A stretch of 64,000 bases of DNA from contig CABZAV010000003.1 in assembly GCA_902523885.1 (NCBI GenBank), positions 11,527-75,526 of the forward strand. The letters are read 5' to 3'. The position numbers and the translations under genes were made by a program. The notes beneath the pieces are model-generated. The model was not told the origin of the DNA. It saw nothing but the letters and a program-made list of their open reading frames with translations, and made no database searches. Source of the DNA: an uncultured SAR86 cluster bacterium. GTDB taxonomy: Bacteria; Pseudomonadota; Gammaproteobacteria; Magnimaribacterales; AG-339-G14. Every line of letters starts with the position of its first letter. Within the stretch, counting starts at the first letter, position 1. Shown one piece after another: positions 3,418-64,000 of the stretch.

Positions 3418-3425
3418 TAATTCTA

Positions 3426-24610: not shown

Positions 24611-24692
24611 ACAAACATTATATTCTAAAAATACAGCCTAAAGTTTAGAAACCTATCTATAATTAATATCTAAAATAAAAGAATTTTTTAAA

Positions 24693-25796: not shown

Positions 25797-25799
25797 TTA

Positions 25800-26261
25800 C
25801 TAATAAGGTTCTCCCGCTGATATGATATCCATTATATTTTTTTCGATATTTTCCATTTTTATTCTTTCATGCTTTGCTTCATGATTAAAGTTCAAAAGAT
25901 GTAAAAAGCCGTGAATTATCATATGTTTTAGTCTATTTTCAAAGTCTTTTGAATATTCTCTGGCCTCTTTTTTGATAATTTCGATACATAAAACTATATC
26001 GCCAATTAAAAGGTTCTTTGTTAGTAGTTCATCAACGCCAAATGATAAAACATTGGTCACTTCATCTTTTCCTCTATATTTTTTATTGAGAAGTTTGATT
26101 TCTTTCTTTGAAACACAAGAAATACTCAACTCTTTGTCTGTAAATTCTTCTTGTTTAAAGCCTGCCTCTTCAATTGTCTTATTCAAAATAGTTGCTACTT
26201 GATTTTTAGTGATTGATGAAGGTGAATTTTCAAAACTATTAAGAAATATTTTCATCGCCAA
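25800..26261 (-). CDS. ybeY: rRNA maturation endoribonuclease YbeY
   Basis: Has the zinc motif 'HGFLHLLNFNH'. 153 aa. Confidence 0.9.
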   Translation of the reverse strand: MAMKIFLNSFENSPSSITKNQVATILNKTIEEAGFKQEEFTDKELSISCVSKKEIKLLNKKYRGKDEVTNVLSFGVDELLTKNLLIGDIVLCIEIIKKEAREYSKDFENRLKHMIIHGFLHLLNFNHEAKHERIKMENIEKNIMDIISAGEPY

Positions 26262-27226
26262 GAATTTTTTTCATAAGCTTCGATAATCTTTTGAACTAGG
26301 CCATGTCTTACAACATCTTCTGGATGAAAGTAAAAAAATGAAATTCCTTTTTCCTTTTCCAAAACCTTAATTGCGTCGGATAAACCTGATGTGGAGCCTT
26401 TTGGGAGATCAGTTTGCGTAATATCTCCTGTTACTACTGCTGTTGAACCGAATCCTATTCTGGTAAGAAACATTTTCATTTGAGCGGGTGTACAATTTTG
26501 TGCTTCATCAAGGATTAAGAAAGCGTCATTCAGAGTTCGGCCTCTCATATAGGCTAGCGGTGCCACTTCAATTTTTCCGTTTTCTACCAATCGGTTCACT
26601 TTTTCCATACCCATCATCTCGTAAAGAGCATCGTATAAAGGTCGCAAATAAGGATCGATTTTTTCAGAAAGATCTCCAGGTAAAAAGCCTAGATGTTCTC
26701 CTGCTTCAACTGCTGGTCTAGTTAAAATTATTTTGTTTACTTTGTCCTCCATAAATTGATTTACAGCTGCTGCAACAGCTAAATAAGTTTTCCCAGTACC
26801 TGCAGGACCGATTCCAAATGCGATATCTTTTTCATAAATGGAGGAAAGAAATTCTACTTGTGACTTATTTCTAGGAGAAACGTAAAGTTTGGGAGTCTGA
26901 ATAGTTAAATCTTTTTCTTTTTTTAATTCAAAAATTTGTCCACTGTTATCTTTAGTAACTCCATTTAATGCCCGTCTGATGGAAAAGTGTACTTCATCAG
27001 CACTCACCGAATCTCTAGATTTGGCTAACGTAGCTAAATCTTCAATTATTAATCTACTTTTTATGACGTTATTTTTTTCTCCTGAAATAGAAAAGCTATT
27101 TCCTCTACTTTTAATTTTTACTTCGAGAGATTGTTCAATTTGATTTAGATTTGTGTTTACTGGTCCACAAAGTAAAGAAAGGTTTTCAGATTCTATGGCG
27201 GGAAGTTTAAATTTTAGTTTTGGCAT
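26252..27226 (-). CDS. ybeZ: PhoH-like ATPase
   Basis: Carries '[13 protein letters not shown]' and 'ILDEAQN'. It sits in the miaB-ybeZ-ybeY-corC order. Confidence 0.9.
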
Positions 27227-50754: not shown

Positions 50755-51372
50755 TTGGAGATGAATAGAAAAAGTAGTTATTTGAATATAGAGTTTTTAT
50801 CAGCATGCACTGAAGCCAAGCTCTATCCTAAGGATTTTGGTAGCGAAGTTGCCATTTGTGGCCGCTCAAACTCAGGTAAATCAAGCATTATCAACGCTCT
50901 AGCTAACTCCAAAAAACTAGCGAAAACCTCCAATACCCCAGGTCGAACTCAGTCCATTAATTTCTTCAGCATCAATAGTGACGTTGACTATAAACTCGTT
51001 GACCTGCCAGGTTATGGTTATGCCAAAGCATCAAAAAAAATGCAAAAAGATTGGGGTCGGCAGATTACGAATTACATGAATTCAAGAGAATCTCTTCGCG
51101 GCATTATTTTGATTATGGATATCAGACACCCCTTCCAAAAAGCTGACCAAGATTTTTTAGCTTGGTGCAGGCAATATCATCTCCCAGTTCAGTTACTGCT
51201 GAACAAGGCCGATAAACTATCTCGCAACCAAGGATTGAATATTCTCTCGACGAGCAAAAAAGAATTGATAAATTTAGAGTTGCTCAATGAACCACTATTA
51301 TTTTCTGCTAAGACACATGATGGCGTGGAACAGCTGACAAAGAACATTTTATCTTGGGTGGAATCCGCCTAA
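50755..51372 (+). CDS. engB: Ribosome biogenesis GTPase EngB/YihA
   Basis: Carries 'GRSNSGKSSIINAL', 'DLPGYGYA' and 'NKADK'. Confidence 0.9.
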   Translation: MEMNRKSSYLNIEFLSACTEAKLYPKDFGSEVAICGRSNSGKSSIINALANSKKLAKTSNTPGRTQSINFFSINSDVDYKLVDLPGYGYAKASKKMQKDWGRQITNYMNSRESLRGIILIMDIRHPFQKADQDFLAWCRQYHLPVQLLLNKADKLSRNQGLNILSTSKKELINLELLNEPLLFSAKTHDGVEQLTKNILSWVESA

Positions 51373-54280: not shown

Positions 54281-54745
54281 ATGAGAATCGCCCTAACTTT
54301 GATATTGATTTTTTGTCTGGCCTTACTTGGTACGGCATATTATATGGAATATGCCTTGGGCTTAGAGCCCTGCCCGATGTGCATCATACAAAGAATCGCA
54401 GTTGCTTTAGCTGGCTTAGCAGCTCTCATTGGACTGATTCACAAACAATATCCAAAAGTTTATTTTGGACTCACCGCAGTTTTTAGTGCAGGTGGCGCCG
54501 CCTCTGCCACTAGACATTTATATTTGCAATCTTTACCAGCAGATCAAGTCCCAACTTGTGGGCCAGATCTTGCTTACTTAATTGATAAATCTTATTTTAC
54601 TGATGCTTTAAGCATGCTTTTCATTGGCGATGGTAATTGTGCCGAAGTAATGTGGAGTCTTTTGGGTATTTCTATTCCAGGGTGGGTGCTTATTTGTTGT
54701 GGGCTAGTAATAATCAGCTCTACTGTTGCATACGTTCGTAGCTAA
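54281..54745 (+). CDS. dsbB: Disulfide bond formation protein DsbB
   Basis: Four-TM pattern with 'EPCPMCIIQR' and a second Cys pair ('PTCGPD ... GNCAEV'). Confidence 0.85.
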   Translation: MRIALTLILIFCLALLGTAYYMEYALGLEPCPMCIIQRIAVALAGLAALIGLIHKQYPKVYFGLTAVFSAGGAASATRHLYLQSLPADQVPTCGPDLAYLIDKSYFTDALSMLFIGDGNCAEVMWSLLGISIPGWVLICCGLVIISSTVAYVRS

Positions 54746-54998
54746 CGTTGCCAAAATAATTTTTATCCATTTTTAAAATTTCATTTTTTTTAAAAAATAT
54801 ACGTACATAATATTTTCTAACGACCGAAACTATAGTTAAAACTAAAGTTTGTACAATCGATATGTATAACGCATTGACAATACCCATGGTTAACATCAAA
54901 GCCAAAGTTGTATAAGACAAAAACCAGGCTATTGGCATGGCAATGGCCGTGTCGGTCATGGATTCTTTTAAAGTTTTTCTATCAATTTTTTTCATCAT
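54720..54998 (-). CDS. Hypothetical small membrane protein (92 aa, two predicted TM helices)
   Basis: The hydrophobic segments are 'AIAMPIAWFLSYTTLALMLTMGIV' and 'ALYISIVQTLVLTIVSVV'. It is divergent from the WYL regulator gene, and its 3' end overlaps dsbB by 26 nt. Confidence 0.4.
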   Translation of the reverse strand: MMKKIDRKTLKESMTDTAIAMPIAWFLSYTTLALMLTMGIVNALYISIVQTLVLTIVSVVRKYYVRIFFKKNEILKMDKNYFGNVSYERMQQ

Positions 54999-55032
54999 AC
55001 TTTTGAAAAGGACAAAATTATATTCTCTTGAT

Positions 55033-55049
55033 GCGACAAATTTTGTCGC
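55033..55049. promoter_or_regulatory. Palindromic operator candidate, copy 1 (GCGACAAAtTTTGTCGC)
   Basis: This is a perfect 17-bp palindrome 40 bp upstream of the WYL regulator start. It lies between a -35-like TTGATG (55028-55033) and a -10-like TATAAA (55050-55055). The same core recurs at 61532 and 62988. Confidence 0.5.
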
Positions 55050-55088
55050 TATAAATGATATAATTAATCAGTTAATCGGGGCCTAAGT

Positions 55089-56090
55089 ATGAGTAATCCA
55101 ACTTTAAGACAAATTTCCATGTTGGAATTAATTCCACGGGCTCCTCTTAAAACTTATTCGAGAGAGCTTAAAGAAAAGCTCAGCGAACGCGGCTACGAAG
55201 TTGATGAAAGGACTATTCAGCGGGATCTCGTTTCTTTAGAGAGAGTTTTGCCATTGATTTGTGACGATCGAGATAAACCTTATGGTTGGTCCTGGGCTGA
55301 GACAGGTTTAGGAATTCAAGCGCCTGCCATGGATCCTGTTGAAGCTTTGACGTTGTCACTAGCAGAACAATACCTTGAACCTATAATGCCGAATGCAAGT
55401 TTTAAAAGGATCGGATATTTTTTTAAACGAGCTAATAGCGTCTTGAAGGAAACGAGTCCCAGATTAATTAGTCGTTGGCGCGATCGCGTAAGGGTATTGC
55501 CCGAGATGTTACGTTTTAAGAATCCAATTCTTAATAAATCTGCCGAACAAGCTTTATACAAAGCAACCTTTGAAGGGCTACAAATTAAAGCCCTTTATCG
55601 AAAGCGTGGAGATAATTATTCAAGCTTGAGGCACATTCATCCTCTGGGATTGGTCATGAAAGGCAGCATTAATTACTTAATTTGCATGATGAATGAAGAC
55701 AAAGAGAATCCTCGTTACTTGCCCCTTCACCGCTTTGAACGAGTAGAAATTCTTGATGAAAAAATATGCGAACCGAAAGATTTTGATTTAGATGAATTTA
55801 CCCATGTCAATAACTTAAGTTTTGAATATTCTAAGAAACTTTATACTTTCAAAGCTTTGTTTGACTTTACCGCAGCGGCTCATTTAATGGAAACTCCTCT
55901 TAATGGAACCCAAAAAATTAAAAAGCAGCCAGATGGAAGGTTATTGGTTTCTGCCAGAATGACCGATACGTTGCAATTCGAACAATGGCTAAAAGGATTT
56001 GGTTCAGACGTTGAGATTTTAGCTCCAATAGAACTTAGAGCTAAGTTCAAAAAACTAGCAAAAGACCTGATTAAAAAATATGATGACTAA
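55089..56090 (+). CDS. wHTH-WYL-domain transcriptional regulator (YafY/BrxR/CapW/PafBC-like architecture)
   Basis: The N-terminal wHTH reads 'RQISMLELIP...YSRELKEKLSERGYEVDERTIQRDLVSLE'. The central WYL-type segment reads 'IHPLGLVMKGSINYLICMMNEDKENPRYLPLHRFERVEIL'. The C-terminal extension reads 'FEQWLKGFGSDVEILAPIELR'. 333 aa. Confidence 0.8.
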   Translation: MSNPTLRQISMLELIPRAPLKTYSRELKEKLSERGYEVDERTIQRDLVSLERVLPLICDDRDKPYGWSWAETGLGIQAPAMDPVEALTLSLAEQYLEPIMPNASFKRIGYFFKRANSVLKETSPRLISRWRDRVRVLPEMLRFKNPILNKSAEQALYKATFEGLQIKALYRKRGDNYSSLRHIHPLGLVMKGSINYLICMMNEDKENPRYLPLHRFERVEILDEKICEPKDFDLDEFTHVNNLSFEYSKKLYTFKALFDFTAAAHLMETPLNGTQKIKKQPDGRLLVSARMTDTLQFEQWLKGFGSDVEILAPIELRAKFKKLAKDLIKKYDD

Positions 56091-56097
56091 AGAATAG

Positions 56098-56994
56098 ATG
56101 AGTAATTTCTTAGACCTTTTCATTGTTTTATTATTACTAGGAATTTTTGCCTTTCTGATCTTCCTTTTCTTTAAATTTAGGACTTCGGACGAAAGTTCTT
56201 ATCAATCAAATCAAAATTTTGAGGAAAAAATTGATCTGCTTTCGAATGAAATTTCAGAAATAGAAAGCAAGCTGATTTCGGTAACGACTCCGATTAATGA
56301 ACTCAATAGATTTTTAGGTGGCAACGTTTCAGCTGGTCGTTTGGGCGAATGGAATCTTGAGTCTGTTGTAAAAGACATCATGCCTGATGGTAGTTACGAA
56401 TTTCAAAAGATTATAAATCCGGAAACAACTGAACAAGTAGATTGTGCCGTTTATAGTGCCGACGGACTAATCATTCCAATTGACTCAAAACTTTATTCGG
56501 GACAATTTAAAAATTATCAGGCTACTTCAAAAAAAATCGAACAAGAAAAAATATTGAAAGGCCTCAAAACTGCCATTCTTAAAGATGCCGACGACATTGC
56601 CCAGAAATACATTCGACAAAATACAACCTCGAATTATGCCATTCTTTATATTGCTTCAGAAAAAATGAACGATCTGGTTGATATGATCGAAGATCTACGC
56701 CAAGAATGTCTTTCAGAAAAAAATGTTTTGATTCAAGGACCGAATACCATGGCAGCTTTTTTAGATACAGTTAAAATAGGACATCATTACTTAAATTTAA
56801 ATGAAACTGCTAGTAAGGTCGCTGAAGTGGTCAGAAAAATAAACAAACAATTCAAAGCTTTTGATGAAAGCACTGTCAATGTCAAAAAAAGATTGGAAGC
56901 TTCGGTGAAAGAAGTAGACGAATTACAAACTCGAATTAATGTGCTTGGTAGAGAATTGGACAGAGGAGCTGAAGAAATGGGGAGCGAAAAATAA
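56098..56994 (+). CDS. RmuC-family (PD-(D/E)xK fold) protein, short form with N-terminal TM helix
   Basis: It has the TM helix 'LFIVLLLLGIFAFLIFLFF', a short coiled coil and the RmuC-like core 'AGRLGEWNLESVV...YEFQ...VDCAVYSADGLIIPIDSKL...YAILYIASE...VLIQGPNTMAAFL'. This parallels E. coli RmuC 'RGNWGE.QLE..L......PD.....IDAK....F..MF.P.E...........SPTTL'. It starts 7 nt after the regulator stop. Confidence 0.7.
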   Translation: MSNFLDLFIVLLLLGIFAFLIFLFFKFRTSDESSYQSNQNFEEKIDLLSNEISEIESKLISVTTPINELNRFLGGNVSAGRLGEWNLESVVKDIMPDGSYEFQKIINPETTEQVDCAVYSADGLIIPIDSKLYSGQFKNYQATSKKIEQEKILKGLKTAILKDADDIAQKYIRQNTTSNYAILYIASEKMNDLVDMIEDLRQECLSEKNVLIQGPNTMAAFLDTVKIGHHYLNLNETASKVAEVVRKINKQFKAFDESTVNVKKRLEASVKEVDELQTRINVLGRELDRGAEEMGSEK

Positions 56995-57017
56995 TCTATT
57001 TGATTTTAAAAGTAATT

Positions 57018-58394
57018 TTACGTAAAAAAATTATTTTGAAAATTTAGAACTGATTTATCAAGTTTAATATCTTTTTCAGTAATTTTAGTTTTTAAATATA
57101 AATTTTTCATCTTTTTGCATCTACTCAAGGCAACGTATACCTGGCCATGACTAAATGCTCTTTTTCCATCGCCAATATCTATTGCGCAAGAATTCAGTGT
57201 AAGCCCTTGTGATTTATGAATTGTAACTGCCCAACCTAATCTTATCGGCAATTGAGAATATTCTGCTATTTTCTCTGTAGTTATTTCTTTAGTTTTCTCA
57301 TCAAATTTGTACCTTTCAAGTGTCCATGACTCTCTTTCAAGTTCAAATTCATCACCATCGATTGAAATGTTAATTGAATTATCATTTAGTTTCTTAATTT
57401 CAGCTAAAGTTCCATTTACCCACCTTTTTTCGGTATCATTTTTAGTAATCATGACTTGAGTGCCTACCTTAAGCTCAAGTTCTGAAGGAGCAGGCAAAGA
57501 ACTTTCTTTGTTAAATTTTGTGGGATCACCTTCAGTTGAAGCCTTATAAATTTTTGAATCTGACTCAATTAATTCTATTTTATTTTTATTGATTTCATCC
57601 GCAGTTGCGGTTCTAGCACAGAGATACATTTCGACTGATTCTGGTGGATTAGGCTCATAACAATGTTTGTTTAAAATCTCTACGGTCTCTTTAACATTTT
57701 TTCCAACCCTAATATTGGAAAGAATCTTTAAAAAATTTTCGTCCTCATTCTGTCTATATGATCTCTTAAGCTCTATTGCAATTGGCTTAGAATTTGAAAG
57801 CGACTTAGCACCAAAGAAAAAATGAGAACTATACTTTGAATATATTATCTCTCTATTTTCTTCTGTAGTTACTGGTTCGAGTTGGAACAAATCTCCACAC
57901 AGAAGAAGAGAGGCTCCACCAAAAGGCTTTTTTGAATTTTTGTGAATTTTTAAACTTTCTGATATTGCGTCAAGAGTTGGAGCGTTAACCATAGAAATTT
58001 CATCGATTATTAGCAAATCTATATTCTCAATAATGAGCCCATTAATGTTATTCATCTTATGAACTTTTGGTAATGGCGAAAAATCTAATCTAAAAAGGGA
58101 GTGAATTGTTGTGGCATTAATATTCCACGCTGCCATGCCGGTTGGTGCAACAGTAACTATAGACTTGTCAATTTTATTTCTTACTAGATTAATTAAACTA
58201 GACTTTCCAGTACCGGCAGCTCCCATCAAAAGAATAACCTTTTGGTTTTCCTTAGAAATACTTTCAAGTTCAGATAATAGTTTTCTTGACTCTAAGGTTT
58301 CTTCAAAAGAATATTTGGAGGGATTTTTTTTATTTACCTTTTTATTATTTAATTCTTTTGTAAAACTTCCAAAGGTGTTACTCATTTTTTTCAC
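57018..58394 (-). CDS. Pif1-family SF1B DNA helicase
   Basis: The SF1B motifs are I 'LLMGAAGTGKSS', Ia 'VAPTGMAAWNI', II 'LLIIDEISMV', III 'LLLCGDLFQLEPV', IV 'LKRSYRQ', V 'VMITKND...WVNG' and VI 'AVTIHKSQGLT', then 'YVALSR'. Confidence 0.85.
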   Translation of the reverse strand: MKKMSNTFGSFTKELNNKKVNKKNPSKYSFEETLESRKLLSELESISKENQKVILLMGAAGTGKSSLINLVRNKIDKSIVTVAPTGMAAWNINATTIHSLFRLDFSPLPKVHKMNNINGLIIENIDLLIIDEISMVNAPTLDAISESLKIHKNSKKPFGGASLLLCGDLFQLEPVTTEENREIIYSKYSSHFFFGAKSLSNSKPIAIELKRSYRQNEDENFLKILSNIRVGKNVKETVEILNKHCYEPNPPESVEMYLCARTATADEINKNKIELIESDSKIYKASTEGDPTKFNKESSLPAPSELELKVGTQVMITKNDTEKRWVNGTLAEIKKLNDNSINISIDGDEFELERESWTLERYKFDEKTKEITTEKIAEYSQLPIRLGWAVTIHKSQGLTLNSCAIDIGDGKRAFSHGQVYVALSRCKKMKNLYLKTKITEKDIKLDKSVLNFQNNFFT

Positions 58395-58500
58395 TAATCA
58401 TAATTTTATATTGCGATTATTGTTATTCTTTTGCAAGTTTCAATACCTTTTTATTAAAGAGATAAATAGATTTCTCTATTAAAAGTTGTTATAAAAATTT

Positions 58501-61089
58501 ATGGAACTAATTTTTTTTTTACTAATAATAGTAATAGCTATTTTTGTTTTTAAAAATAACAATTCATTTTCTTTACCTCAAGAAAGTTATAAAAAAACAG
58601 AACCTGAATATATAAAAATAGAAAAAAATAATTTAATAAGATACAAAGAATTTTTTGATAATCTTTTTGAGTATTCGCTCACTCAAGATCAAAGGAAATC
58701 AATAGTTTGTGATGCCGATAGATTGCTTTCAGTTGCTTCTGCTGGATCAGGTAAAACTTCAACCCTCGTAGGTAAGTTTGCTTATCTTGTGAAATCAAAA
58801 AAGGCTAAAGAAAGTGAGATTCTTATTCTCTCTTTTAATAGGTCAGTAAAAGAGGAATTAGAAAAAAGATTGAAACAACTTGGACATAATGATGCAAAAA
58901 TAGAAACATTTCACTCTTTGGGCAGAAAGATTTTAAAATCTGCTAACGAGCCATTTCAAATAGATAAAATGGCTCTTGGAGATGGAGATTCGTTTTTAAC
59001 CTCTTTTCAAGTTAGAAGTCTTATATCAAAAGCAGAAATTAAAAGCCCTTCCATTAGATTCAAGATCGCAGAATTTACTGCTCTTACCCAATACCATTTG
59101 ATTGAAAACTTTGCAGAAGATCAAAATGAATATAATGAAGCGATATCAAGTTATCCATATAAAAGAAATAAATTTAAGTTTAATGATGAATTTAGGCCTT
59201 TGAAAATTCCAGCGCTTGATGGAAAAACTTGGGTGAGATCTCAACAAGAATTATTTATAGCAAATTTACTTGTTCTCAATGGAATAAATTTTAAATATGA
59301 AGCGCCTTTAAGTATTGGGGAGAATGATTCTATAAATCCAGATTTTTATTATCCCGATATAGATCTATGGCACGAGCATTATGCGATAGATGAGAGAGGA
59401 AAATCACCTTTTGGTGAAAAATATGAAGAAAATCATAAGTTGAAAGAAGAATTTTATAAAAGGTCGTCTATAGAAGTATTTTCAACAAATTTAAAGGATT
59501 ATTCAAGTGGAGAAATTGAGCATAAAATCTTTTCTGAATTAGAATCAAATGGATTGCAGAAAAATCCTCTATCTTTATTAGATATTGAATTTAAGTTGAG
59601 TGAAATATACACAGATTCCACTTATAGTTTAATTGCAAATTTAATAGGACTTCACAAAGAAAATAATTCATCAATATCCGAAACACTTTCTAAATTAGAC
59701 TCTTTGCATGACCAAACAAGAGCACAAAAGTTTAAAGAGATTTTTTTTCCTTTGCTTGATGCCTACCAAGAAATATTAGCAAGTAATAGAACTATTGATT
59801 TTTCAGACATGATGACAAAAGCTAATAAAATTATAGAGGGTAATAACAAAAATAATTCAGATCAGACTTCTATTCAAAACTTTAAGTATATTTTGGTAGA
59901 TGAATTTCAAGATATTTCAAAATCTAGGGAAAAGTTAATTAAAAGTATTTTATCATGTAATAAAGAGTCAAAATTGTTTGGTGTAGGTGATGATTGGCAA
60001 TCAATTTATAGATTCACTGGATCTGATATTTCTATAATGACCGATTTTAAAAATCGGTTTAATTTTAAAAAAGATAAAGTCGAAGGAGATTCAAATCAAC
60101 CTCTCTTTGAAATAAAAGAAAGGATTGAGGTAAAGAATATATCTGAAACGCATAGATTTCCAGATTCTATCGTAAAACTTTCTTCGGAGTTTATTCAAAA
60201 AAATCCAAATCAGCTTAAAAAAGAAATAAAAACAGATAAGAAAGGAGGAAGAATTTTTCTATGCAAAATAGAAAAATATAAAACTCAGGATTTAAAGAAT
60301 ATCCTTGATCATATTTCATCGGGAAAAAAAGTTTTTTTGCTCGCAAGAAAAAATCAAGACATAGATAATATTGATTTTGAAGAATTGAAACTTTATAGAC
60401 CTGACTTAGATATAAAATTTTCATCCATTCACAGAGTAAAAGGATCTGAGCGAGATGTAATAATAATTTTAGGAATGGACGGCGGTATGTTTGGCTTCCC
60501 TAGAATTTTTTCTGAAGATCCTTTAATTAGCATATATTTGCCTAAAGAAGACGAATTCAGAGATGCTGAGGAGAGGAGAGTTCTATACGTAGCCATGACA
60601 AGAGGCAGGGAAGACATTTTTTTAGTTTCTGCGCCTGGAAAAGATTATGTATTTTATAACGAACCTTCGGTATTTTATGATGAAATCAAAAGAATCTGTG
60701 AACAAGAGTTTCTGCCTGAAAATAATAAAATTTTTAATGAGTTAGATTTTACAGAGAGTATTCCTTGTAAAGTTTGTGCTAATAAAAAAATTAATCAGAA
60801 AATGAGAATAAAAACTGTCCGTAATACTAAAAAAAATATTGAAAGTGGAATTTTTCCTGGGGTTTTTATGGGTTGTTCAGGATTTTCAAAGAATATAAAA
60901 AGTCCGACTTTCTGCAATCATTCAGAAAGGAAAGCAATATGTATAAATTGTTATTCAAAAGATAAAAAAAATTTATCAGAACTTGAGGTAATTGAAGAAG
61001 ACGAAAATGGAAGAAAAAAATATTTTGTTTTTTGTAGTAATTGTAATTTTAAGAAAGATTATTTTTATTATCAGAAAATTTCAGAATAA
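58501..61089 (+). CDS. UvrD/HelD-like SF1A helicase with N-terminal TM helix, inserted Vsr/PD-(D/E)xK-like module and C-terminal zinc ribbons
   Basis: The TM helix is 'MELIFFLLIIVIAIFVF'. The helicase motifs are 'VASAGSGKTST', 'ETFHSLG', 'ILVDEFQDIS', 'GVGDDWQSIYRFTGSD', 'ETHRF', 'SSIHRVKGSERDVIIILG' and 'EERRVLYVAMTRGRE'. The insertion is 'SQQELFIANLLVLNGINFKYEAPL......INPDFYYPDIDLWHEHYAID' (nt 59230-59400). The C-terminus carries 'CKVC...FMGCSGFSKNIKSPTFCNH' and 'CINC...FCSNCNF' (nt 60766-61060). Confidence 0.8.
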   Translation: MELIFFLLIIVIAIFVFKNNNSFSLPQESYKKTEPEYIKIEKNNLIRYKEFFDNLFEYSLTQDQRKSIVCDADRLLSVASAGSGKTSTLVGKFAYLVKSKKAKESEILILSFNRSVKEELEKRLKQLGHNDAKIETFHSLGRKILKSANEPFQIDKMALGDGDSFLTSFQVRSLISKAEIKSPSIRFKIAEFTALTQYHLIENFAEDQNEYNEAISSYPYKRNKFKFNDEFRPLKIPALDGKTWVRSQQELFIANLLVLNGINFKYEAPLSIGENDSINPDFYYPDIDLWHEHYAIDERGKSPFGEKYEENHKLKEEFYKRSSIEVFSTNLKDYSSGEIEHKIFSELESNGLQKNPLSLLDIEFKLSEIYTDSTYSLIANLIGLHKENNSSISETLSKLDSLHDQTRAQKFKEIFFPLLDAYQEILASNRTIDFSDMMTKANKIIEGNNKNNSDQTSIQNFKYILVDEFQDISKSREKLIKSILSCNKESKLFGVGDDWQSIYRFTGSDISIMTDFKNRFNFKKDKVEGDSNQPLFEIKERIEVKNISETHRFPDSIVKLSSEFIQKNPNQLKKEIKTDKKGGRIFLCKIEKYKTQDLKNILDHISSGKKVFLLARKNQDIDNIDFEELKLYRPDLDIKFSSIHRVKGSERDVIIILGMDGGMFGFPRIFSEDPLISIYLPKEDEFRDAEERRVLYVAMTRGREDIFLVSAPGKDYVFYNEPSVFYDEIKRICEQEFLPENNKIFNELDFTESIPCKVCANKKINQKMRIKTVRNTKKNIESGIFPGVFMGCSGFSKNIKSPTFCNHSERKAICINCYSKDKKNLSELEVIEEDENGRKKYFVFCSNCNFKKDYFYYQKISE

Positions 61090-61427
61090 TCAGCAAAAAA
61101 ACTTAAAATGAAATTAGTAAAAGGCAATCCAAGAAATATAAGACTCAAAAAACCTATTAACAATATCAAAATGCTTTGTAACGTATCCGCGTACATCATA
61201 ACGAGAGTCATTATTGCTGAGCTCGCTAGTATTTGAGGAACAATGGAGTTCATTAAAGAAAAATCCATTTGTTCTGGAATATTTATATTATGACTTGTTT
61301 CAGTTAATGTTGGCTTAACACTATTACTGTATAGCTTTTGTAGAGGAAAAGTAGCTGCATAAGCAGTAGATGCGGTTATGAGCTTTAAACCCGTTTTTAA
61401 AAACTTTCTTCTTTCTGCGTCTATCAT
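61071..61427 (-). CDS. Hypothetical small membrane protein with twin-arginine (Tat) signal-like N-terminus
   Basis: 'MIDAERRKFLKTGLKLITASTAYAA' fits S/T-RRxFLK plus an h-region. Hydrophobic segments lie in the C-terminal half. It overlaps the helicase 3' end convergently by 19 nt. Confidence 0.4.
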   Translation of the reverse strand: MIDAERRKFLKTGLKLITASTAYAATFPLQKLYSNSVKPTLTETSHNINIPEQMDFSLMNSIVPQILASSAIMTLVMMYADTLQSILILLIGFLSLIFLGLPFTNFILSFFADYSEIF

Positions 61428-61531
61428 TTTTTAAGCTTTCTAAGGTTATTATCTTTAAGGCCCTTTAGTAAGGAGTATAAAACTAAAAGGCCTTTAGGAG
61501 AAAATATGAAAAACAACTTTAAAATAAAGAT

Positions 61532-61548
61532 GCGACAAATATTGTCGG
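61532..61548. promoter_or_regulatory. Palindromic operator candidate, copy 2 (GCGACAAataTTGTCGG)
   Basis: It has 6-bp perfect arms CGACAA/TTGTCG with a 3-nt centre. It lies in the gap between the 61554 gene stop and the 61427 gene start, and shares 'gatgcgacaaat' with copy 1. Confidence 0.45.
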
Positions 61549-61553
61549 ATTAA

Positions 61554-61757
61554 TTATTCAAATTTAGCCTCATAGAGTTTTGAATAGCCCATATAACTTC
61601 GTCTTTGTCTTCCAGTGAGGCGTCCATATTCGTCGAAAAAGTAGACCATTGCACCAGTAGGGCCTGTCATTTGAATGTGGAGCTCCCACGTACCATTTTC
61701 AAATTTTATAATGCTCTTGCTGTGATCGATGTCAATTTTTTCTAATAATTCTTTCAT
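61554..61757 (-). CDS. Hypothetical protein (67 aa from MKELLEK...)
   Basis: The track ORF is 61554-61769. The ATG at 61757-61755 forms an ATGA overlap with the TGA stop (61756-61754) of the upstream OGFr-like gene, which suggests translational coupling. I recognise no family. Confidence 0.35.
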   Translation of the reverse strand: MKELLEKIDIDHSKSIIKFENGTWELHIQMTGPTGAMVYFFDEYGRLTGRQRRSYMGYSKLYEAKFE

Positions 61758-62197
61758 GCTTCTTCCCAAAATTTCATTGTGGTTGGATTCAAAATAGTCG
61801 GATCTTTGACTAGTCTTAAAATGGCTTTGTAAAACTCATCTGCAGCTTCATCAGAAACTAAAAGTCTCAAAGATTCAATTACCCGAGTAATGCGCAACTG
61901 ATTGTGATCGTACCCCTTTTGCCAAGCATCGTTTCTACTCAAAAAAGATAGAAACCAAGCAGCCGATTTCTCAAGATTATTTATTACTTTTGGATTGTTT
62001 TTAAGTTTGTCTATTAATGCTTGATTGTTCAAAAATAGTTTATTAAAAGTTGCTTGACTTGGTTTGTTCGTAGGAAAAACTAACTGAACAAAATCATGAG
62101 TGCCTTCAATTTCATTATCTGAATATGCCCAGATTTCTTTTAAGAAACGTCCTTTAAAATCTGGACCTTGATTGGTCAAAAACTTTTCAAAATCCAT
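61754..62197 (-). CDS. Opioid-growth-factor-receptor (OGFr) conserved-region-like protein
   Basis: 'EIEGTHDFVQLVFPTNKPSQ' resembles the 'HDYIQWLFPL.E.S' core of bacterial OGFr_N-like proteins; this is from memory and no HMM was run. The start is set at MDFEKF... (62197), 4 nt after the upstream gene stop, because the longer track ORF would overlap that gene. Confidence 0.5.
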   Translation of the reverse strand: MDFEKFLTNQGPDFKGRFLKEIWAYSDNEIEGTHDFVQLVFPTNKPSQATFNKLFLNNQALIDKLKNNPKVINNLEKSAAWFLSFLSRNDAWQKGYDHNQLRITRVIESLRLLVSDEAADEFYKAILRLVKDPTILNPTTMKFWEEA

Positions 62198-62201
62198 GTC
62201 T

Positions 62202-62876
62202 TTATTTAAGTGAGCCAAGCAGTAGATCATTTTCAAGTTGCCTTTTTTGACACAATTCGACGAAGTCATGCATTGCTTGTTGAAATTCGTTACTTTCGAA
62301 GGTAAGAAGGTTGAAGCCTTCAAAATACAAATAGTATGGACTTTCAGGAGGAATGAATATGGATAGTTTTTTTACTAAAGATTCGTCTTCTTTTATTAAA
62401 TAAGCCCCTTTCTTAATATGAACCAAAAAAATATCAAATAACAAGTCATCGCTTTTTGAATGTTTTTGATAAAAATCCTGGTCTATCATGTTTTCAAATT
62501 TACTTACAAGGCGTATTTCTGAATCAACCCAATATGGTGGTTCGTCGTCAACCTGCATGACCACTCTTGTTTCATTAAGGAGATCTTCTCTTTCTACTAT
62601 GCCTTCGTGTTTTCGGAAACCCGCGGTAAAGATCTGAAAAAAAACTTCAGGTTGATCGCAATTGGGCATACTGAAAGATAAGACTAATTTATTCCAATAG
62701 GAGTGTTGATCGCTAATAGAAATGTATCCGTAGTCACCATCATTCGATTCAGATATTTCCCAGGTGGTACCAATTTCATTCAAGTAAAGGTCGGAATGAT
62801 AAATTTTATAAGTTTGGTCTTGAGCGGACATCGTTATGCCGCTCAAGAAAAATAATAAATAAAAGTTAATCTTCAT
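62202..62876 (-). CDS. Hypothetical secreted protein (224 aa)
   Basis: It has the signal peptide 'MKINFYLLFFLSGITMSAQ'. I recognise no family. It is the first gene of a three-gene minus-strand cluster. Confidence 0.45.
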   Translation of the reverse strand: MKINFYLLFFLSGITMSAQDQTYKIYHSDLYLNEIGTTWEISESNDGDYGYISISDQHSYWNKLVLSFSMPNCDQPEVFFQIFTAGFRKHEGIVEREDLLNETRVVMQVDDEPPYWVDSEIRLVSKFENMIDQDFYQKHSKSDDLLFDIFLVHIKKGAYLIKEDESLVKKLSIFIPPESPYYLYFEGFNLLTFESNEFQQAMHDFVELCQKRQLENDLLLGSLK

Positions 62877-62987
62877 TGAATAATTTCGACCAAAGTATAG
62901 TTCCGTCTAAATCAATTTCTATTTCTTCGTTGGACATATTTCTTAGACACATCAAATTCTCGTGAGTTCTAAGGTTAAGGTTTCAAA

Positions 62988-63004
62988 ACGACAAGCTTTG
63001 TCGT
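62988..63004. promoter_or_regulatory. Palindromic operator candidate, copy 3 (ACGACAAgctTTGTCGT)
   Basis: It has 7-bp perfect arms with a 3-nt centre. It lies in the divergent intergenic region between the 62876(-) and 63038(+) genes, 8 nt upstream of a TATAAA (63013-63018). Confidence 0.45.
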
Positions 63005-63037
63005 AAGAGCGTTATAAAGTTTGCCTCTGGAGAAAAG

Positions 63038-63340
63038 ATGAATAATCCTGAAATAGACAAAAAATTAAGTGGCGCGATAGATGAAGTGATTTCAATTTAT
63101 TTAGAATCAACCGATGTTGAGGTTATCGATCTTTTTAGGAGTTTAACGAGGCATGTCATATCATTAAATTACCAATATGCCTCTAATTATCGCTCTGCGA
63201 CTGCCATGATTGCACAATGTCTCAATGACGTTATGTGCGACCTACAAGAGCAAAAGATCTTTAATGACGAGTTCAAAGACAACTTAAAGAAAGGCAAAGT
63301 TACATCTGTTTTGGAAGATCATTTAAAAAAGAAGCACTAA
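63038..63340 (+). CDS. Hypothetical protein (100 aa)
   Basis: ORF with the SD-like 'ggagaaaag' just upstream of the ATG. I recognise no family. Confidence 0.4.
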   Translation: MNNPEIDKKLSGAIDEVISIYLESTDVEVIDLFRSLTRHVISLNYQYASNYRSATAMIAQCLNDVMCDLQEQKIFNDEFKDNLKKGKVTSVLEDHLKKKH

Positions 63341-63344
63341 AAAT

Positions 63345-63743
63345 TTGAAAAAGATAAAAGCAAAAAAATTTTTTCCTTACCCTTCTCAAGAAAGTTTCGA
63401 TGATGCCTTAAATATTATTGCTGAAATAAGAGCAGAAAATTACTTTTGGACAAAAAAAATTTGGTATGTTGAACAGAAAATTAAAAAATTTGCTAACGAC
63501 GATATCAATCGTGAATTTTATGTTCGGTTAAGGGATAAGTTAGACGAAAAAATTTGTAATAGTCATACTATTTATATTGATTTGTTAATGGATATTACAA
63601 AAGTAACTGGCATAAAAAAGAAAATTACAAAAAAATTTGTTCAAATGACCGATGAGCTAATTTTGCAAGACAGAAGATCTAATGATTATTTTAATATTAA
63701 AAATCAACCTTTTCCTTTTGAAGATGAATTAAACTATCGTTAA
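63345..63743 (+). CDS. Hypothetical protein (132 aa, TTG start per track)
   Basis: The ORF starts 4 nt after the previous stop. The first in-frame ATG is far downstream, so a non-ATG start is required if the gene is real. A strong terminator follows it. Confidence 0.35.
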   Translation: MKKIKAKKFFPYPSQESFDDALNIIAEIRAENYFWTKKIWYVEQKIKKFANDDINREFYVRLRDKLDEKICNSHTIYIDLLMDITKVTGIKKKITKKFVQMTDELILQDRRSNDYFNIKNQPFPFEDELNYR

Positions 63744-63751
63744 GCAATGCT

Positions 63752-63783
63752 AAAAAAAAGGGAGCCTGAGCTCCCTTTTTTAT
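63752..63783. terminator. Bidirectional rho-independent terminator
   Basis: The sequence 'aaaaaaaaGGGAGCctgaGCTCCCttttttatttt' has stem arms at 63760-63765 and 63770-63775. An A-run precedes it and a T-run follows, and it sits between convergent genes. Confidence 0.75.
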
Positions 63784-63796
63784 TTTAAGCAAAAGT

Positions 63797-64000
63797 TTAT
63801 TCCCAAGCCTTAACAGGATTGACGATTCCTCTTCTGACTATCGAACGATTTCTTCTGACCGCAGTTTGAAATTCTTTGAAATCTGGATTTTTCATATCCA
63901 ATAAATCTAAAGTTTCCATGAGTGAAGCCACATTCTGGCCGCCAATAAAAGCAAAGTGAGAAAAATCAGTTCCGGCAACAACTCTTTCAAGTCCATAAGA
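63797..64000 (-). CDS. C-terminal fragment of an unidentified protein (5' part outside window; possibly amidohydrolase-like)
   Basis: My minus-strand translation, in frame to the window edge, reads ...SYGLERVVAGTDFSHFAFIGGQNVASLMETLDLLDMKNPDFKEFQTAVRRNRSIVRRGIVNPVKAWE*. The stop codon is at 63799-63797. The family assignment is weak. Confidence 0.4.
   Translation of the reverse strand, partial: SYGLERVVAGTDFSHFAFIGGQNVASLMETLDLLDMKNPDFKEFQTAVRRNRSIVRRGIVNPVKAWE

What the first reader, a model, noticed from the sequence alone, without database searches (positions are those of the whole stretch)
54720..63796. A roughly 9-kb accessory-looking block lies between dsbB and a terminator-delimited core gene, with no mobility genes
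To the left, the polA/engB/cc4-dsbA/dsbB region has conserved gammaproteobacterial synteny. From 54720 to 63743, none of the 12 ORFs has a housekeeping assignment. The block holds three small membrane or secreted proteins, a regulator, three nucleic-acid enzymes and five unknowns. It ends at the strongest terminator in the window (63752-63783). I saw no integrase, transposase, tRNA or obvious flanking direct repeats, so how it was acquired, if it was, is unclear. Parts of it, especially 58.5-61.1 kb, look more AT-rich than the core in my spot counts. The Pif1 gene does not, at 22 and 27 G+C per 60 nt in the two lines I counted.
Basis: partly seen in the sequence, partly recalled or inferred. 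Interest (0 to 1): 0.6.

Follow-up and report, generated by a model that had tools for sequence, protein, structure and literature searches.

The report
Swappable SAR86 defence island with ssDNA-type regulator
The 9-kb block is this strain's version of a gene-swapping hot spot between two conserved genes of the marine bacterium SAR86; related strains hold restriction and other anti-virus systems there, and it probably has its own DNA-damage-type switch, with binding sites at three places inside it.

Summary
Against close relatives, homology stops at about 54700, inside the last ~15 codons of dsbB. It resumes at 63753, at a conserved two-way terminator that is the strongest in the window. The minimal state of the site is dsbB-rmuC-terminator-right gene, so rmuC is a permanent resident rather than cargo.

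Across about 60 SAR86 versions of this site the content varies. It includes type I and III restriction-modification, DISARM, Ssp/Pbe-like genes, a Mokosh-like helicase, methylase/SNF2/HNH sets and a KAP NTPase. No version in the window carries an integrase, tRNA or flanking repeats. The cargo (56995-63752) is 30.4% GC against 36.2% elsewhere.

The new point is the regulator. It is DriD/DdaA-like, not BrxR/CapW-like. The DriD box core CGACA-N5-TGTCG occurs three times in the window, all inside the block. It sits upstream of nearly every homologous regulator gene at this site. A further copy lies near the right end of all five complete islands.

The window's own cargo matches no known defence system: a Pif1-like helicase, a membrane-anchored helicase IV-like protein with a nuclease-like insert and a small Tat-signal partner, and lineage-specific small genes.

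Verdict: a real replacement-type island, a new variant of a known kind. Its defence role and the direction of regulation are inferred, not shown.

The parts
54281..54745 (+). dsbB, the left core flank. Its last ~15 codons (from about 54700) belong to the variable region.
   Evidence: Pfam DsbB on the identical protein. Homology to L064/L065/L104/L110 ends at 54699-54702.
54720..54998 (-). DUF7220 small membrane protein (2 predicted TM segments). It is transcribed divergently from the regulator and overlaps the dsbB 3' end by 26 nt.
   Evidence: Pfam PF23858, E 3.6e-9. Hydrophobic segments. Homologues sit next to the WYL gene in L001, L002, L006, L008, L019, L060, L061, L076, L105, L149 and L150.
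55033..55049 (.). DriD-type box 1 (GCGACAAATTTTGTCGC) in the 90-nt divergent DUF7220/WYL promoter region. It is followed 6 nt later by TGATATAAT, an extended -10 motif read by eye.
   Evidence: The same palindrome lies 38-45 nt upstream of the WYL start, or 23-25 nt upstream of a small leader ORF, in the other loci.
55089..56090 (+). wHTH-WYL-WCX transcription regulator of the DriD/DdaA type.
   Evidence: Pfam WYL and WCX. Best PDB sequence hits are DriD. The AF2 model's top 11 Foldseek hits are DriD at E 3e-15 to 6e-12, against 1e-7 to 1e-5 for CapW/BrxR. It has an NYL motif as in DriD.
56098..56994 (+). RmuC-family protein (PD-(D/E)xK nuclease family) with an N-terminal TM helix. It starts 8 nt after the WYL stop and is the WYL-linked allele class.
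   Evidence: Pfam RmuC, E 5e-40. TM segment 7-25. It is 62-70% identical to the core 295-aa type in all lineages and 83-97% only to L060/L006.
57018..58394 (-). Pif1/Dda-like SF1B helicase (cargo).
   Evidence: Pfam PIF1, E 7e-29. PHROG Dda-like helicase, E 7e-77. Present only in the near-identical L140 and, at 44%, in L060.
58501..61089 (+). Helicase IV-like SF1A helicase (cargo). It has an N-terminal TM helix, an inserted PD-(D/E)xK-like domain at about residues 240-335, and C-terminal Cys-rich Zn ribbons.
   Evidence: Pfam UvrD-helicase spanning 60-520 for 271 profile positions. NF008276 helicase IV, E 3e-91, 307 bits, below the 543 cut-off. Invariant S247, E250, D281, E292, H293, K315 and 8 conserved Cys. 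AF2 pLDDT 88.5 with an alpha-beta-beta-beta-alpha-beta segment. Whole-chain hits are UvrD/PcrA/Rep.
61071..61427 (-). Small protein with a twin-arginine signal (ERRKFLK) and 2 C-terminal TM segments. It is the conserved convergent partner of the helicase IV-like gene.
   Evidence: Homologues (39-42% id) overlap the 3' end of the helicase gene in L141, L142, L144, L146, L147 and L153, and at 93% in L140. TM segments.
61532..61548 (.). DriD-type box 2 (GCGACAAATATTGTCGG), 106 nt upstream of the Tat-signal gene and 6 nt downstream of the o67 stop. It could also act as a weak hairpin.
   Evidence: (repeat D3). A one-mismatch copy lies at the same place in L140. A degenerate copy lies upstream of the homologous operon in L144/L153. 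It is also listed as terminator-like.
   Evidence: 61% identical homologue in the same arrangement in L149. ATGA overlap.
61754..62197 (-). OGFr_N-like protein (147 aa after start refinement).
   Evidence: Pfam OGFr_N, E 2.6e-4, just below cut-off. 69% identical 147-aa homologue in L149 annotated OGFr_N (weak).
62202..62876 (-). o224, a predicted secreted protein (N-terminal signal-like segment). It is the first gene of the minus-strand operon leaving box 3.
   Evidence: No family. 47% identical syntenic homologue in L019.
62988..63004 (.). DriD-type box 3 (ACGACAAGCTTTGTCGT) in the divergent o224 / o100 promoter region.
   Evidence: An exact box lies at the syntenic divergent region in L019, L149, L150 and L153.
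63038..63340 (+). o100, a lineage-specific small protein; first gene of the right-end pair.
   Evidence: Homologues in L149/L150 (44%) and L019 (24%, syntenic). Only 6 relatives among 1.84 billion representative proteins.
63345..63743 (+). o132, a lineage-specific small protein and the last gene before the terminator. Lowest GC in the window (25.3%).
   Evidence: Homologues at the right end of L019 (42%), L149 (35%) and L150 (30%). Only close relatives found by protein search. GC z = -3.8.
63753..63787 (.). Conserved two-way intrinsic terminator, the right boundary of the variable region. It belongs to the conserved flank.
   Evidence: Present directly after whatever gene comes last in the window, L064, L065, L104, L110 and L019. 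Fold -18.6 kcal/mol, z = -3.6. Strongest in the window.
63798..64000 (-). C-terminal 67 codons of the right core flank gene, a 245-aa predicted secreted protein of unknown function in L064.
   Evidence: 99-100% identical in L064, L065 and L110.

Best explanation
**What it is.** The block is this genome's version of a replacement-type flexible island, a defence-island hot spot. The site is fixed in SAR86, between dsbB and a conserved secreted-protein gene. Its minimal state is dsbB-rmuC-terminator.

**Layout.** The window's version has three layers.
1. A left module: DUF7220 <- box -> WYL regulator-rmuC.
2. Swappable middle cargo: a Pif1-like helicase, and a membrane-anchored helicase IV-like protein with a nuclease-like insert and its Tat-signal partner.
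3. A recurring right-end module: o224-OGFr-like-o67 <- box -> o100-o132, ending at the conserved terminator.

**Turnover.** Content is most likely exchanged between strains by homologous recombination. Crossovers would fall in the conserved flanks and at the 3' edges of dsbB and rmuC. That explains why no integrase, tRNA or repeats are present. This step is inferred.

**Regulation.** The regulator is a DriD/DdaA-type wHTH-WYL-WCX dimer. It most likely binds the three CGACA-N5-TGTCG boxes. It would couple transcription of rmuC and the flanking small-protein operons to single-stranded DNA arising from DNA damage or phage replication.

**Shown versus inferred.**
- Shown: the boundaries, the variability, the defence content of sister versions, the composition, the family resemblance of the regulator, and the distribution of the box.
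- Inferred: actual binding, the ssDNA signal, the sign of regulation, and an anti-phage role for this strain's own cargo. Box 1 covers the -35 region of an extended -10 promoter, which suggests autorepression there.
For: **Hot spot.**
- The dsbB side (polA-dsbB) is conserved across the SAR86 loci, with at least 10 different contents between the flanks; the gene to the right of the terminator differs between sub-lineages.
- Sister versions carry type I R-M plus RmuC (L008), type III R-M (L101) and DISARM DrmA/DrmB/DrmMII (L006).
- Others carry SspD/PbeA/PbeC-like genes (L060, PbeA E 7e-113), an MkoA-like helicase-nuclease (L090/L074), and C5 methylase with SNF2, HNH and GHKL genes (L002/L105/L144).
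- Others carry methylase with HpaII REase and Z1 (L150), methylase with DUF4420, Z1 and GHKL (L149), and a KAP NTPase (L102).

**Breakpoints.** They lie at 54700, 56972 (against L060) and 63753.

**rmuC allele classes disagree with the host tree.** Among loci with PolA 95-98% identical to the window, RmuC identity ranges from 47% to 97%. The core 295-aa type tracks phylogeny.

**Composition and mobility.** The cargo is AT-rich. No mobility or phage hallmark genes, tRNA or Rfam family were found.

**Regulator.**
- Sequence and fold are closest to DriD. It has the NYL motif, not the RWHVR motif of CapW/BrxR (PMC11662680).
- The box equals the DriD consensus core. DriD's consensus is ATACGAC-N7-GTCGTAT, and its crystallised site contains CGACAGTTACTGTCG (PMC10853764). 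Acinetobacter DdaA target sites were predicted with the same CGAC-N7-GTCG pattern (PMC13010146).
- There are 3 exact boxes in the window, all in the block, against 0.33 expected for the 16-nt pattern with up to one mismatch.
- There are 20 exact boxes in 1.55 Mb of loci, against 0.9 expected. All lie at WYL promoters, except one at the syntenic right-end promoter of L019.
- All five complete WYL islands have a further exact box near the right end.

**Precedent.** A WYL regulator upstream of a membrane-anchored RmuC-domain defence protein is known from Shield (PMC10270631).
Against: - None of the window's own cargo proteins belongs to a complete known defence system. PADLOC gives only GajB-like and RecD-like partial hits without partners.
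- Some versions of the site carry non-defence genes, such as a TonB-dependent receptor, a HAD phosphatase and a SnoaL-like protein. The hot spot is therefore not exclusively immune.
- DriD and DdaA are regulators of DNA-damage responses, not of defence. The block could be a damage-response module.
- Only some ssDNA-contacting residues of DriD are conserved: R178, Y192 and R204 are, while K202, W206, Y168 and S172 are not.
- The regulator model is of moderate confidence (pLDDT 71.8, pTM 0.41).
- Box 2 could simply be a hairpin after o67.
- Recombination as the exchange mechanism is inferred from the breakpoints and the lack of mobility genes. It was not observed.
Confidence: 0.7

Rival explanations
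1. The block is an accessory SOS-independent DNA-damage-response module rather than an immune locus. A DriD-like activator would switch on repair and recombination enzymes (RmuC nuclease, Pif1 and helicase IV-like helicases) and small membrane proteins. DUF7220 or the Tat-signal protein could then act like the division inhibitors DidA and AciT. The restriction systems in sister strains would be unrelated neighbours.
For: - The regulator is closest to DriD in sequence, fold, motif and operator.
- DriD and DdaA regulons include nucleases, recA and small division inhibitors (PMC9186387, PMC13010146).
- E. coli helicase IV, RmuC and Pif1 are DNA-metabolism enzymes (established knowledge).
- Small membrane proteins lie next to boxes 1 and 2.
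Against: - The regulator and its regulon are absent from close relatives (L064, L065, L003), which is odd for a damage response.
- No box lies in front of Pif1 or the helicase IV-like gene.
- In sister strains the same regulator heads DISARM, R-M and Ssp/Pbe-like cargo.
- No similarity of DUF7220 or the Tat-signal protein to DidA or AciT was tested or found.
- The two readings are not exclusive. DdaA also controls a CRISPR locus (PMC13010146).
Confidence: 0.2
2. The block is the decayed remnant of an integrated mobile element, such as a prophage, satellite or integrative element, that lost its integrase and attachment sites.
For: - Composition is AT-rich.
- Pif1/Dda-like and UvrD-like helicases and DUF7220 have phage-family relatives.
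- Accessory genes of unknown function are present.
Against: - There is no integrase, recombinase, structural, packaging or replication-initiator gene, and no tRNA or flanking repeats.
- None of the fully annotated versions (L148-L150, L153) shows an integrase or other mobility gene in its Pfam lists; the other versions were annotated only in part.
- Both junctions fall inside or at the edge of conserved genes, not at att-like sites.
- The terminator is not duplicated.
Confidence: 0.05
3. The region is ancestral, and the differences between strains reflect differential gene loss during genome streamlining, with no horizontal exchange.
For: - WYL-bearing versions occur across the breadth of SAR86, with DsbB 65-97% identical to the window.
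- The right-end small-gene pair is shared at 30-44% identity, consistent with age.
Against: - RmuC and cargo types are incongruent with PolA and DsbB relatedness.
- Near-identical regulator/rmuC modules carry unrelated cargo (window against L060).
- The cargo's composition deviates from the core.
- Loss alone cannot generate more than 10 unrelated gene sets at one site.
Confidence: 0.05

Closest known systems
Core defence hot spots flanked by core genes (P. aeruginosa cDHS1/cDHS2, PMC10250203; E. coli hot spots, PMC10121019) and 'replacement' flexible genomic islands of marine bacteria (own knowledge)
   Same: - Fixed chromosomal site between conserved genes.
- Very different defence systems in different strains.
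- Lower GC than the genome.
- Not obviously part of any mobile-element class. Exchange through the conserved flanks has been proposed for these sites.
   Different: [quoted passage not shown]
- A resident rmuC gene is always inside the site.
- A DriD-type regulator with boxes at both ends frames the cargo.
- The host is an uncultured, streamlined marine lineage.
- The island is small (minimal state about 1 kb, here 9 kb).
DriD (Caulobacter) and DdaA (Acinetobacter), ssDNA-sensing WYL activators of the DNA-damage response
   Same: - wHTH-WYL-WCX architecture.
- Best sequence and fold match.
- NYL motif.
- The same palindromic box core, CGAC-N7-GTCG with an AT-rich spacer, including one in its own promoter.
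   Different: - About 18-22% identity only.
- Strain-variable rather than core.
- All known boxes lie inside an accessory island next to defence cargo.
- Box 1 overlaps the -35 region rather than lying upstream of it.
- ssDNA binding and activation are untested.
BrxR/CapW WYL repressors of defence islands
   Same: - A WYL regulator at the head of variable defence cargo.
- A palindromic site in its own promoter.
- ssDNA as the likely signal (CapW, PMC11662680).
   Different: - Lacks the RWHVR motif.
- Fold match is 7-10 orders of magnitude weaker than to DriD.
- No phmmer hit to CapW or BrxR at E <= 1.
Shield (ShdA, membrane-anchored RmuC-domain defence protein, often preceded by a BrxR-like WYL gene; PMC10270631)
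   Same: - An N-terminal TM helix plus an RmuC domain immediately downstream of a WYL regulator.
- Sits among defence systems.
- RmuC homologues are also embedded in DISARM-like operons.
   Different: - ShdA constructs extend to about 520-526 residues, and Shield has been reported only in Pseudomonas.
- Here RmuC is 298 aa and is a resident of the site even without the regulator.
- No Shield partner genes are present.
- No PADLOC hit other than a weak RT-associated RmuC model.
E. coli helicase IV (HelD) / UvrD-PcrA-Rep SF1A helicases
   Same: Helicase core motifs. NF008276 hit at E 3e-91. Foldseek top hits are UvrD/PcrA/Rep.
   Different: - Scores below the helicase IV cut-off (307 against 543 bits).
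- Has an N-terminal TM helix, an inserted PD-(D/E)xK-like domain and C-terminal Zn ribbons.
- Has a conserved Tat-signal partner gene.

Membership tests
Core-flanked defence hot spot / replacement flexible genomic island | Same conserved flanking genes in all genomes of the lineage | tested here: met
   polA-dsbB on the left in every SAR86 locus. On the right, the conserved terminator plus the secreted-protein gene, or SnoaL/SNase in one sub-lineage.
Core-flanked defence hot spot / replacement flexible genomic island | Unrelated gene content at the site in different strains, including a minimal state | tested here: met
   14 loci have the minimal dsbB-rmuC-core arrangement, and there are at least 10 other architectures. 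Window and L060 share the left module and differ completely after 56972.
Core-flanked defence hot spot / replacement flexible genomic island | Known defence systems recur in the site | tested here: met
   Type I and type III R-M, DISARM, SspD/PbeA/PbeC-like, MkoA-like, methylase/REase/Z1/GHKL sets and a KAP NTPase. This is not met for the window's own cargo.
Core-flanked defence hot spot / replacement flexible genomic island | Composition deviating from the core | tested here: met
   Cargo 30.4% GC against 36.2%. No equal-sized stretch outside the block falls below 33.9%.
Core-flanked defence hot spot / replacement flexible genomic island | Measured protection against phage | not testable with these tools
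   Needs heterologous expression and phage challenge.
DriD/DdaA-type WYL regulators | wHTH + WYL + WCX architecture, homodimer | tested here: met
   Pfam WYL and WCX. The model has an N-terminal H-H-H-E-E winged helix. Full-length Foldseek alignment to DriD. Dimerisation was not tested.
DriD/DdaA-type WYL regulators | Closer to DriD than to the repressor class (degenerate NYL motif rather than RWHVR) | tested here: met
   INYLIC aligns with DriD SNYLVA. DriD scores E 3e-15, against 1e-7 to 1e-5 for CapW/BrxR. Motif definitions come from PMC9186387 and PMC11662680.
DriD/DdaA-type WYL regulators | CGAC-N7-GTCG box with AT-rich spacer in its own promoter and at target promoters | tested here: met
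   Box 1 lies 39 nt upstream of the start. Boxes 2 and 3 are in the block. The box is conserved upstream of homologues and at right-end promoters. The consensus comes from PMC10853764.
DriD/DdaA-type WYL regulators | Binds ssDNA in the WYL domain and then activates transcription | tested here: inconclusive
   R178, Y192 and R204 equivalents are conserved; K202, W206, Y168 and S172 equivalents are not. Box 1 overlaps the -35 region, which fits repression as well as activation. Biochemistry is not available.
BrxR/CapW repressors | RWHVR motif in the WYL domain | tested here: not met
   The sequence has NYL at that position (PMC11662680).
Shield (ShdA) | N-terminal TM helix plus C-terminal RmuC domain | tested here: met
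   TM segment 7-25. Pfam RmuC covers 31-289.
Shield (ShdA) | ShdA-like length and sequence (constructs extend to about 520-526 residues); Shield partner genes ShdB-E in subtypes II-IV | tested here: not met
   298 aa, and no partner-like genes. The only PADLOC hit is RT-associated RmuC at E 8e-5. Whether that library holds a ShdA model is unknown to me.
Helicase IV (HelD, NF008276 equivalog) | Score above the curated cut-off | tested here: not met
   307 bits against a cut-off of 543. It is a relative, not an equivalog.
Gabija | GajB helicase together with GajA ATPase-nuclease | tested here: not met
   GajB-model hits on the helicase core only (E 5e-41). No GajA-like gene is in the block.
Integrative mobile element (prophage, satellite, ICE/IME, integron) | Integrase or recombinase, att or direct repeats, often a tRNA target | tested here: not met

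The most novel reading that the evidence does not exclude
The island may be a regulated cassette holder. An ssDNA-sensing DriD-type regulator with a resident RmuC nuclease sits at the left end. A box-controlled operon of lineage-specific small proteins (o100/o132, or other genes in other lineages) sits at the right end. Together they would form one co-inherited functional frame around interchangeable immune cargo.

On this reading, one of the ocean's most abundant streamlined bacteria couples a DNA-damage-type sensor to a modular, inducible immune locus. The frame proteins would themselves be a new effector or arrest module. The membrane-anchored helicase IV-nuclease with its Tat partner would be a new defence system.
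Probability: 0.25. Interest if true: 0.75.

Novelty: new variant of a known kind. Interest (0 to 1): 0.58.

Why it matters
**SAR86 biology.** SAR86 is among the most abundant uncultured heterotrophs of the surface ocean, and how its small genome handles phage pressure is poorly known. This locus offers a concrete, easily recognised site (dsbB-rmuC) where strain-level immune diversity is concentrated. It can be mined in single-cell genomes and long-read metagenomes.

**Regulation.** The site links the DriD/DdaA class of WYL regulators, so far described as activators of DNA-damage responses, to defence-island cargo. Operators lie at both ends of the island. That makes the proposed overlap between damage sensing and immunity testable in a new lineage.

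**Candidates.** It nominates uncharacterised proteins for experiments: divergent RmuC alleles, the helicase IV-nuclease with its Tat partner, and the o100/o132 pair.

**If the defence reading fails.** The locus would still be a well-delimited example of integrase-free gene replacement in a streamlined genome.

Tried and rejected
- **Flanking direct repeats at about 54.7 and 63.8 kb.** Only short AT-rich chance matches were found. No duplicated terminator or dsbB end, and no remnant of the minimal-type rmuC, was found in the block.
- **tRNA/tmRNA and Rfam.** Nothing real. One sub-threshold miRNA hit at 61451-61504 is chance.
- **Prophage reading.** PHROGs and tblastn against phages gave only helicase-family similarity and unknown-function families.
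- **Known defence systems in the window's cargo.** PADLOC gave only partial, partner-less hits: GajB, RecD-like and candidate PDC models.
- **First spacing tried for the palindrome (N6).** It found nothing relevant. The correct spacing is N5 between CGACA and TGTCG.
- **N-terminal domain of the regulator against PDB by sequence.** No DriD hit, only weak ArgR-type wHTH matches. The link to DriD over the N-terminus rests on the fold search.
- **RmuC against PDB by sequence.** No informative hit.
- **Function of o100 and o132.** Both families are tiny and lineage-specific, so no structure prediction was attempted.
- **Nuclease-like insert of the helicase.** The whole-chain fold search is dominated by the helicase core. 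The PD-(D/E)xK assignment rests on topology and invariant residues only.
- **Prediction that the o100/o132 pair would be at the right end of every WYL island.** It failed for L148/L153, where other genes flank the box. Only the second box generalises.
- **Consensus promoter/terminator scan.** It did not list the boundary terminator, so it was checked by folding.

Full report
**Where the window comes from and what the block contains**

PolA and DsbB searches place the window in the uncultured marine gammaproteobacterial SAR86 cluster. The best matches are PolA 95-98% identical in single-cell genomes and MAGs.

The block holds the following ORFs:
- A DUF7220 protein with two predicted transmembrane segments (54720-54998, minus strand).
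- A WYL+WCX regulator (55089-56090).
- An RmuC-family protein with an N-terminal transmembrane helix, starting 8 nt after the regulator gene (56098-56994).
- A Pif1/Dda-like helicase (57018-58394, minus strand).
- An 862-aa UvrD-family helicase whose best named relative is helicase IV (58501-61089). It scores E 3e-91 but falls below the family cut-off.
- A 118-aa protein with a twin-arginine signal and two C-terminal transmembrane segments (61071-61427, minus strand).
- Five ORFs with no solid family assignment.

Homologues in other loci refine two starts. The OGFr_N-like gene is 61754-62197 (147 aa). The small gene after it is 61554-61757 (67 aa, ATGA overlap).

**Checking the observation**

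BLASTN against the closest relatives with the simplest form of the site (L064, L065; PolA 97%) shows about 92% identity up to window 54699-54700. It then shows only a 69.5% match over rmuC (56277-56979), and about 91% again from 63753.

The aligned junctions show two things:
- The left break lies inside the last ~15 codons of dsbB.
- The right break lies exactly at a conserved hairpin, A-run-GGGAGC-N4-GCTCCC-T-run. This hairpin follows whatever gene comes last in every version examined.

That hairpin folds at -18.6 kcal/mol (z = -3.6). It is the strongest hairpin-plus-T-run in the window on both strands.

No mobility signature was found:
- No tRNA or tmRNA.
- No integrase, transposase or phage hallmark gene.
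- No Rfam family.
- No flanking direct repeats.

Composition deviates. The cargo 56995-63752 is 30.4% GC against 36.2% for the rest, and no equal-sized stretch elsewhere is below 33.9%. The helicase IV-like gene (28.3%) and o132 (25.3%) are the extremes. The regulator gene and rmuC are ordinary.

**The site is a hot spot**

I mapped the window's proteins onto 139 related loci and clustered the ORFs downstream of dsbB in about 60 SAR86 loci. This gives one backbone, dsbB-rmuC-terminator-core genes, and many alternatives.

Fourteen loci have the minimal arrangement, in which dsbB and rmuC overlap. The others carry extra genes between dsbB and rmuC, after rmuC, or both. Annotated examples:

| Locus | Content at the site |
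|---|---|
| L008 | Type I R-M plus a long RmuC |
| L101 | Type III R-M |
| L006 | DISARM (DrmA, DrmB, DrmMII) |
| L060, L062 | SspD-like, PbeA (E 7e-113) and PbeC/LmuB-like genes |
| L090, L074 | MkoA-like helicase-nuclease |
| L002, L105, L144 | Methylase with SNF2, plus HNH and GHKL genes in L002 |
| L149 | Methylase, DUF4420, Z1, GHKL |
| L150 | Methylase, HpaII-type endonuclease, Z1 |
| L148/L153 | ABC ATPase, DUF87, PLD operon |
| L073, L110 | Dam methylase with a DpdB-like protein |
| L102 | KAP NTPase |
| L083 | TonB-dependent receptor (not defence) |

L060 shares DUF7220-WYL-rmuC with the window at 93% nucleotide identity, up to seven codons before the rmuC stop. It is then unrelated. 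L140, from another metagenome, carries the window's cargo at 98%.

**rmuC is a resident, not cargo**

A 295-aa type is found in the minimal sites and tracks host phylogeny (75-99% identity). The window's allele is 62-70% identical to all of those, regardless of host distance. It is close only to L060 and L006 (83-97%), which also carry the regulator.

Among loci whose PolA is 95-98% identical to the window, RmuC identity runs from 47% to 97%. L076 reaches only 28%, although its DsbB is 94% identical. At least six allele classes exist.

This incongruence argues for repeated replacement rather than differential loss. So do the deviant composition and the presence of unrelated gene sets on identical flanks. 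Breakpoints lie at the edges of conserved genes and there are no mobility genes. Homologous recombination through the flanks is therefore the most economical exchange mechanism. This is an inference, as it is for the Pseudomonas core defence hot spots (PMC10250203).

**The regulator and its operator**

A repeat search found a 36-nt similarity between the WYL promoter and a site 6.5 kb away (family D3). Its core is the palindrome CGACA-N5-TGTCG. It occurs exactly three times in the 64-kb window, all inside the block:
- 55034, between DUF7220 and the regulator gene.
- 61533, between o67 and the Tat-signal gene.
- 62989, between o224 and o100.

For the 16-nt pattern with up to one mismatch, 0.33 matches are expected by chance, and none of 100 shuffles reached the observed count.

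In 1.55 Mb of related loci there are 20 exact copies against about 0.9 expected. Nineteen lie just upstream of a homologous regulator gene or its short leader ORF, amid otherwise diverged intergenic sequence. The twentieth lies at the syntenic o224-like/o100-like divergent promoter of L019. Loci without the regulator have none.

Further islands fetched afterwards behave the same way. Each has a box at the regulator gene, and L149, L150 and L153 have additional exact boxes near the right end. All five islands seen end to end (window, L019, L149, L150, L148/L153) thus have a box at both ends.

The palindrome is the published DriD box:
- The consensus is ATACGAC-N7-GTCGTAT, and the crystallised site contains CGACAGTTACTGTCG (PMC10853764).
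- Acinetobacter DdaA target sites were predicted with the same CGAC-N7-GTCG pattern (PMC13010146).

Independent evidence points the same way:
- The regulator's best PDB sequence hits are DriD, at E 5e-9.
- It has NYL where DriD has NYL, and where CapW/BrxR have RWHVR (PMC9186387, PMC11662680).
- An AlphaFold model (pLDDT 71.8) has DriD as its top eleven Foldseek hits (E 3e-15 to 6e-12). PafBC follows, and CapW/BrxR score only 1e-7 to 1e-5.

I therefore file the regulator with the DriD/DdaA type.

What I cannot decide is the sign of regulation. Box 1 is followed 6 nt later by TGATATAAT, an extended -10 motif, so it covers the -35 region. This fits autorepression, as was suggested for driD itself. 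Box 3 sits farther from the minus-strand operon. Only part of DriD's ssDNA-contact set is conserved.

**The modules inside the block**

*Helicase IV-like gene and its partner.* The helicase gene is always followed by a convergent, overlapping gene for the small Tat-signal protein. The partner is 39-42% identical in L141, L142, L144, L146, L147 and L153, where the helicase is 52-67% identical. This is a conserved two-gene module. Pif1 accompanies it only in the near-identical L140.

A 52-sequence alignment of the helicase shows invariant S247, E250, D281, E292, H293 and K315 inside a roughly 190-residue insertion, plus eight conserved cysteines at the C-terminus. The model (pLDDT 88.5) gives an alpha-beta-beta-beta-alpha-beta segment there. 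I read this as a PD-(D/E)xK-like nuclease domain plus Zn ribbons. The whole-chain fold search only recovers UvrD/PcrA/Rep, so this reading is inferred.

In other phyla the helicase sits in accessory contexts without the partner, next to GmrSD_C, Eco57I-like and toxin-antitoxin fragments.

*Right-end genes.*
- The o100/o132 pair recurs next to the terminator in L019, L149 and L150. Identity is 24-44%, and the gene order is inverted in two of them.
- The OGFr-like/o67 pair recurs in L149 (61-69%).
- In L148/L153 other genes flank the right-end box.
- o100 has six relatives among 1.84 billion representative proteins. o132 has only close relatives.

**What it most likely is**

It is a replacement-type island at a SAR86 hot spot. 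It has a resident RmuC nuclease, a DriD-type ssDNA-responsive regulator whose boxes bracket the island, and interchangeable cargo that is usually immune in sister strains.

The nearest precedent for the left module is Shield. There, a membrane-anchored RmuC-domain protein confers phage defence and is repressed by an upstream WYL regulator (PMC10270631). The SAR86 protein is much shorter than ShdA and is not a member of that family.

The main rival is an accessory DNA-damage-response module. A decayed mobile element and pure differential loss are poorly supported.

**Limits**
- Most loci are metagenome contigs or single-cell assemblies cut at 10 kb from the anchor.
- Only the neighbourhood of this site was searched for boxes, not whole genomes.
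- Binding, signal, sign of regulation, recombination and any phage protection are all untested.

Noticed in passing
L063:1-3824: Two tandem dsbB copies, 85% identical to each other, flank a two-gene module (clusters c15 and c25). The second copy is preceded by the polA-dsbB intergenic region. This could record a single-crossover integration within dsbB, or it could be a chimeric metagenome assembly.
   Followed up: partly
window 61506-61553: A 15-codon ORF (MKNNFKIKMRQILSD) with a strong AGGAG 6 nt upstream contains box 2 within its coding sequence. It was read by eye and may be coincidence.
   Followed up: no
L105:2825-4108 and L144:88-1353: A 421-427-aa protein combines RNA polymerase alpha C-terminal-domain-like repeats with several sigma-70 region 4, MarR or HTH-type segments. 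It is encoded inside the methylase/SNF2 version of the island, which is an unusual architecture.
   Followed up: no
L002:5369-6442, L008:1026-2117, L149:17437-18519: Longer RmuC forms (357-363 aa) sit in the restriction-type operons, on the strand opposite the regulator. They lie at the distal end in L008 and L149 and in mid-operon in L002. This differs from the 295-305-aa forms that follow dsbB or the regulator.
   Followed up: partly
L150:17405-17551: Two exact DriD-type boxes lie 132 nt apart upstream of the o132-like/o100-like pair. Other islands have one.
   Followed up: no
window 3001-5000 and 24001-26300: Two other low-GC stretches in the window (31.6-32.4% GC). The ORF at 25800-26261 is 28.6%, the lowest outside the block. 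Their content was not examined.
   Followed up: no
window 50755-51372: engB is a codon-usage outlier in the opposite direction (GC3 40.8%, z = +3.3; synonymous-usage z = -3.2), although it is a core gene.
   Followed up: no
window 63759-63776: The consensus terminator scan did not list the boundary terminator, although it meets the stated criteria. Folding and an independent scan did find it.
   Followed up: yes
clusters of o132 (P0241), the regulator (P0121) and the helicase (P0001): The near-identical cluster of the right-end gene o132 has 227 member sequences. The regulator's has 115 and the helicase's has 6. This fits frame genes being commoner in the ocean than this particular cargo, but the counts are not normalised.
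   Followed up: no
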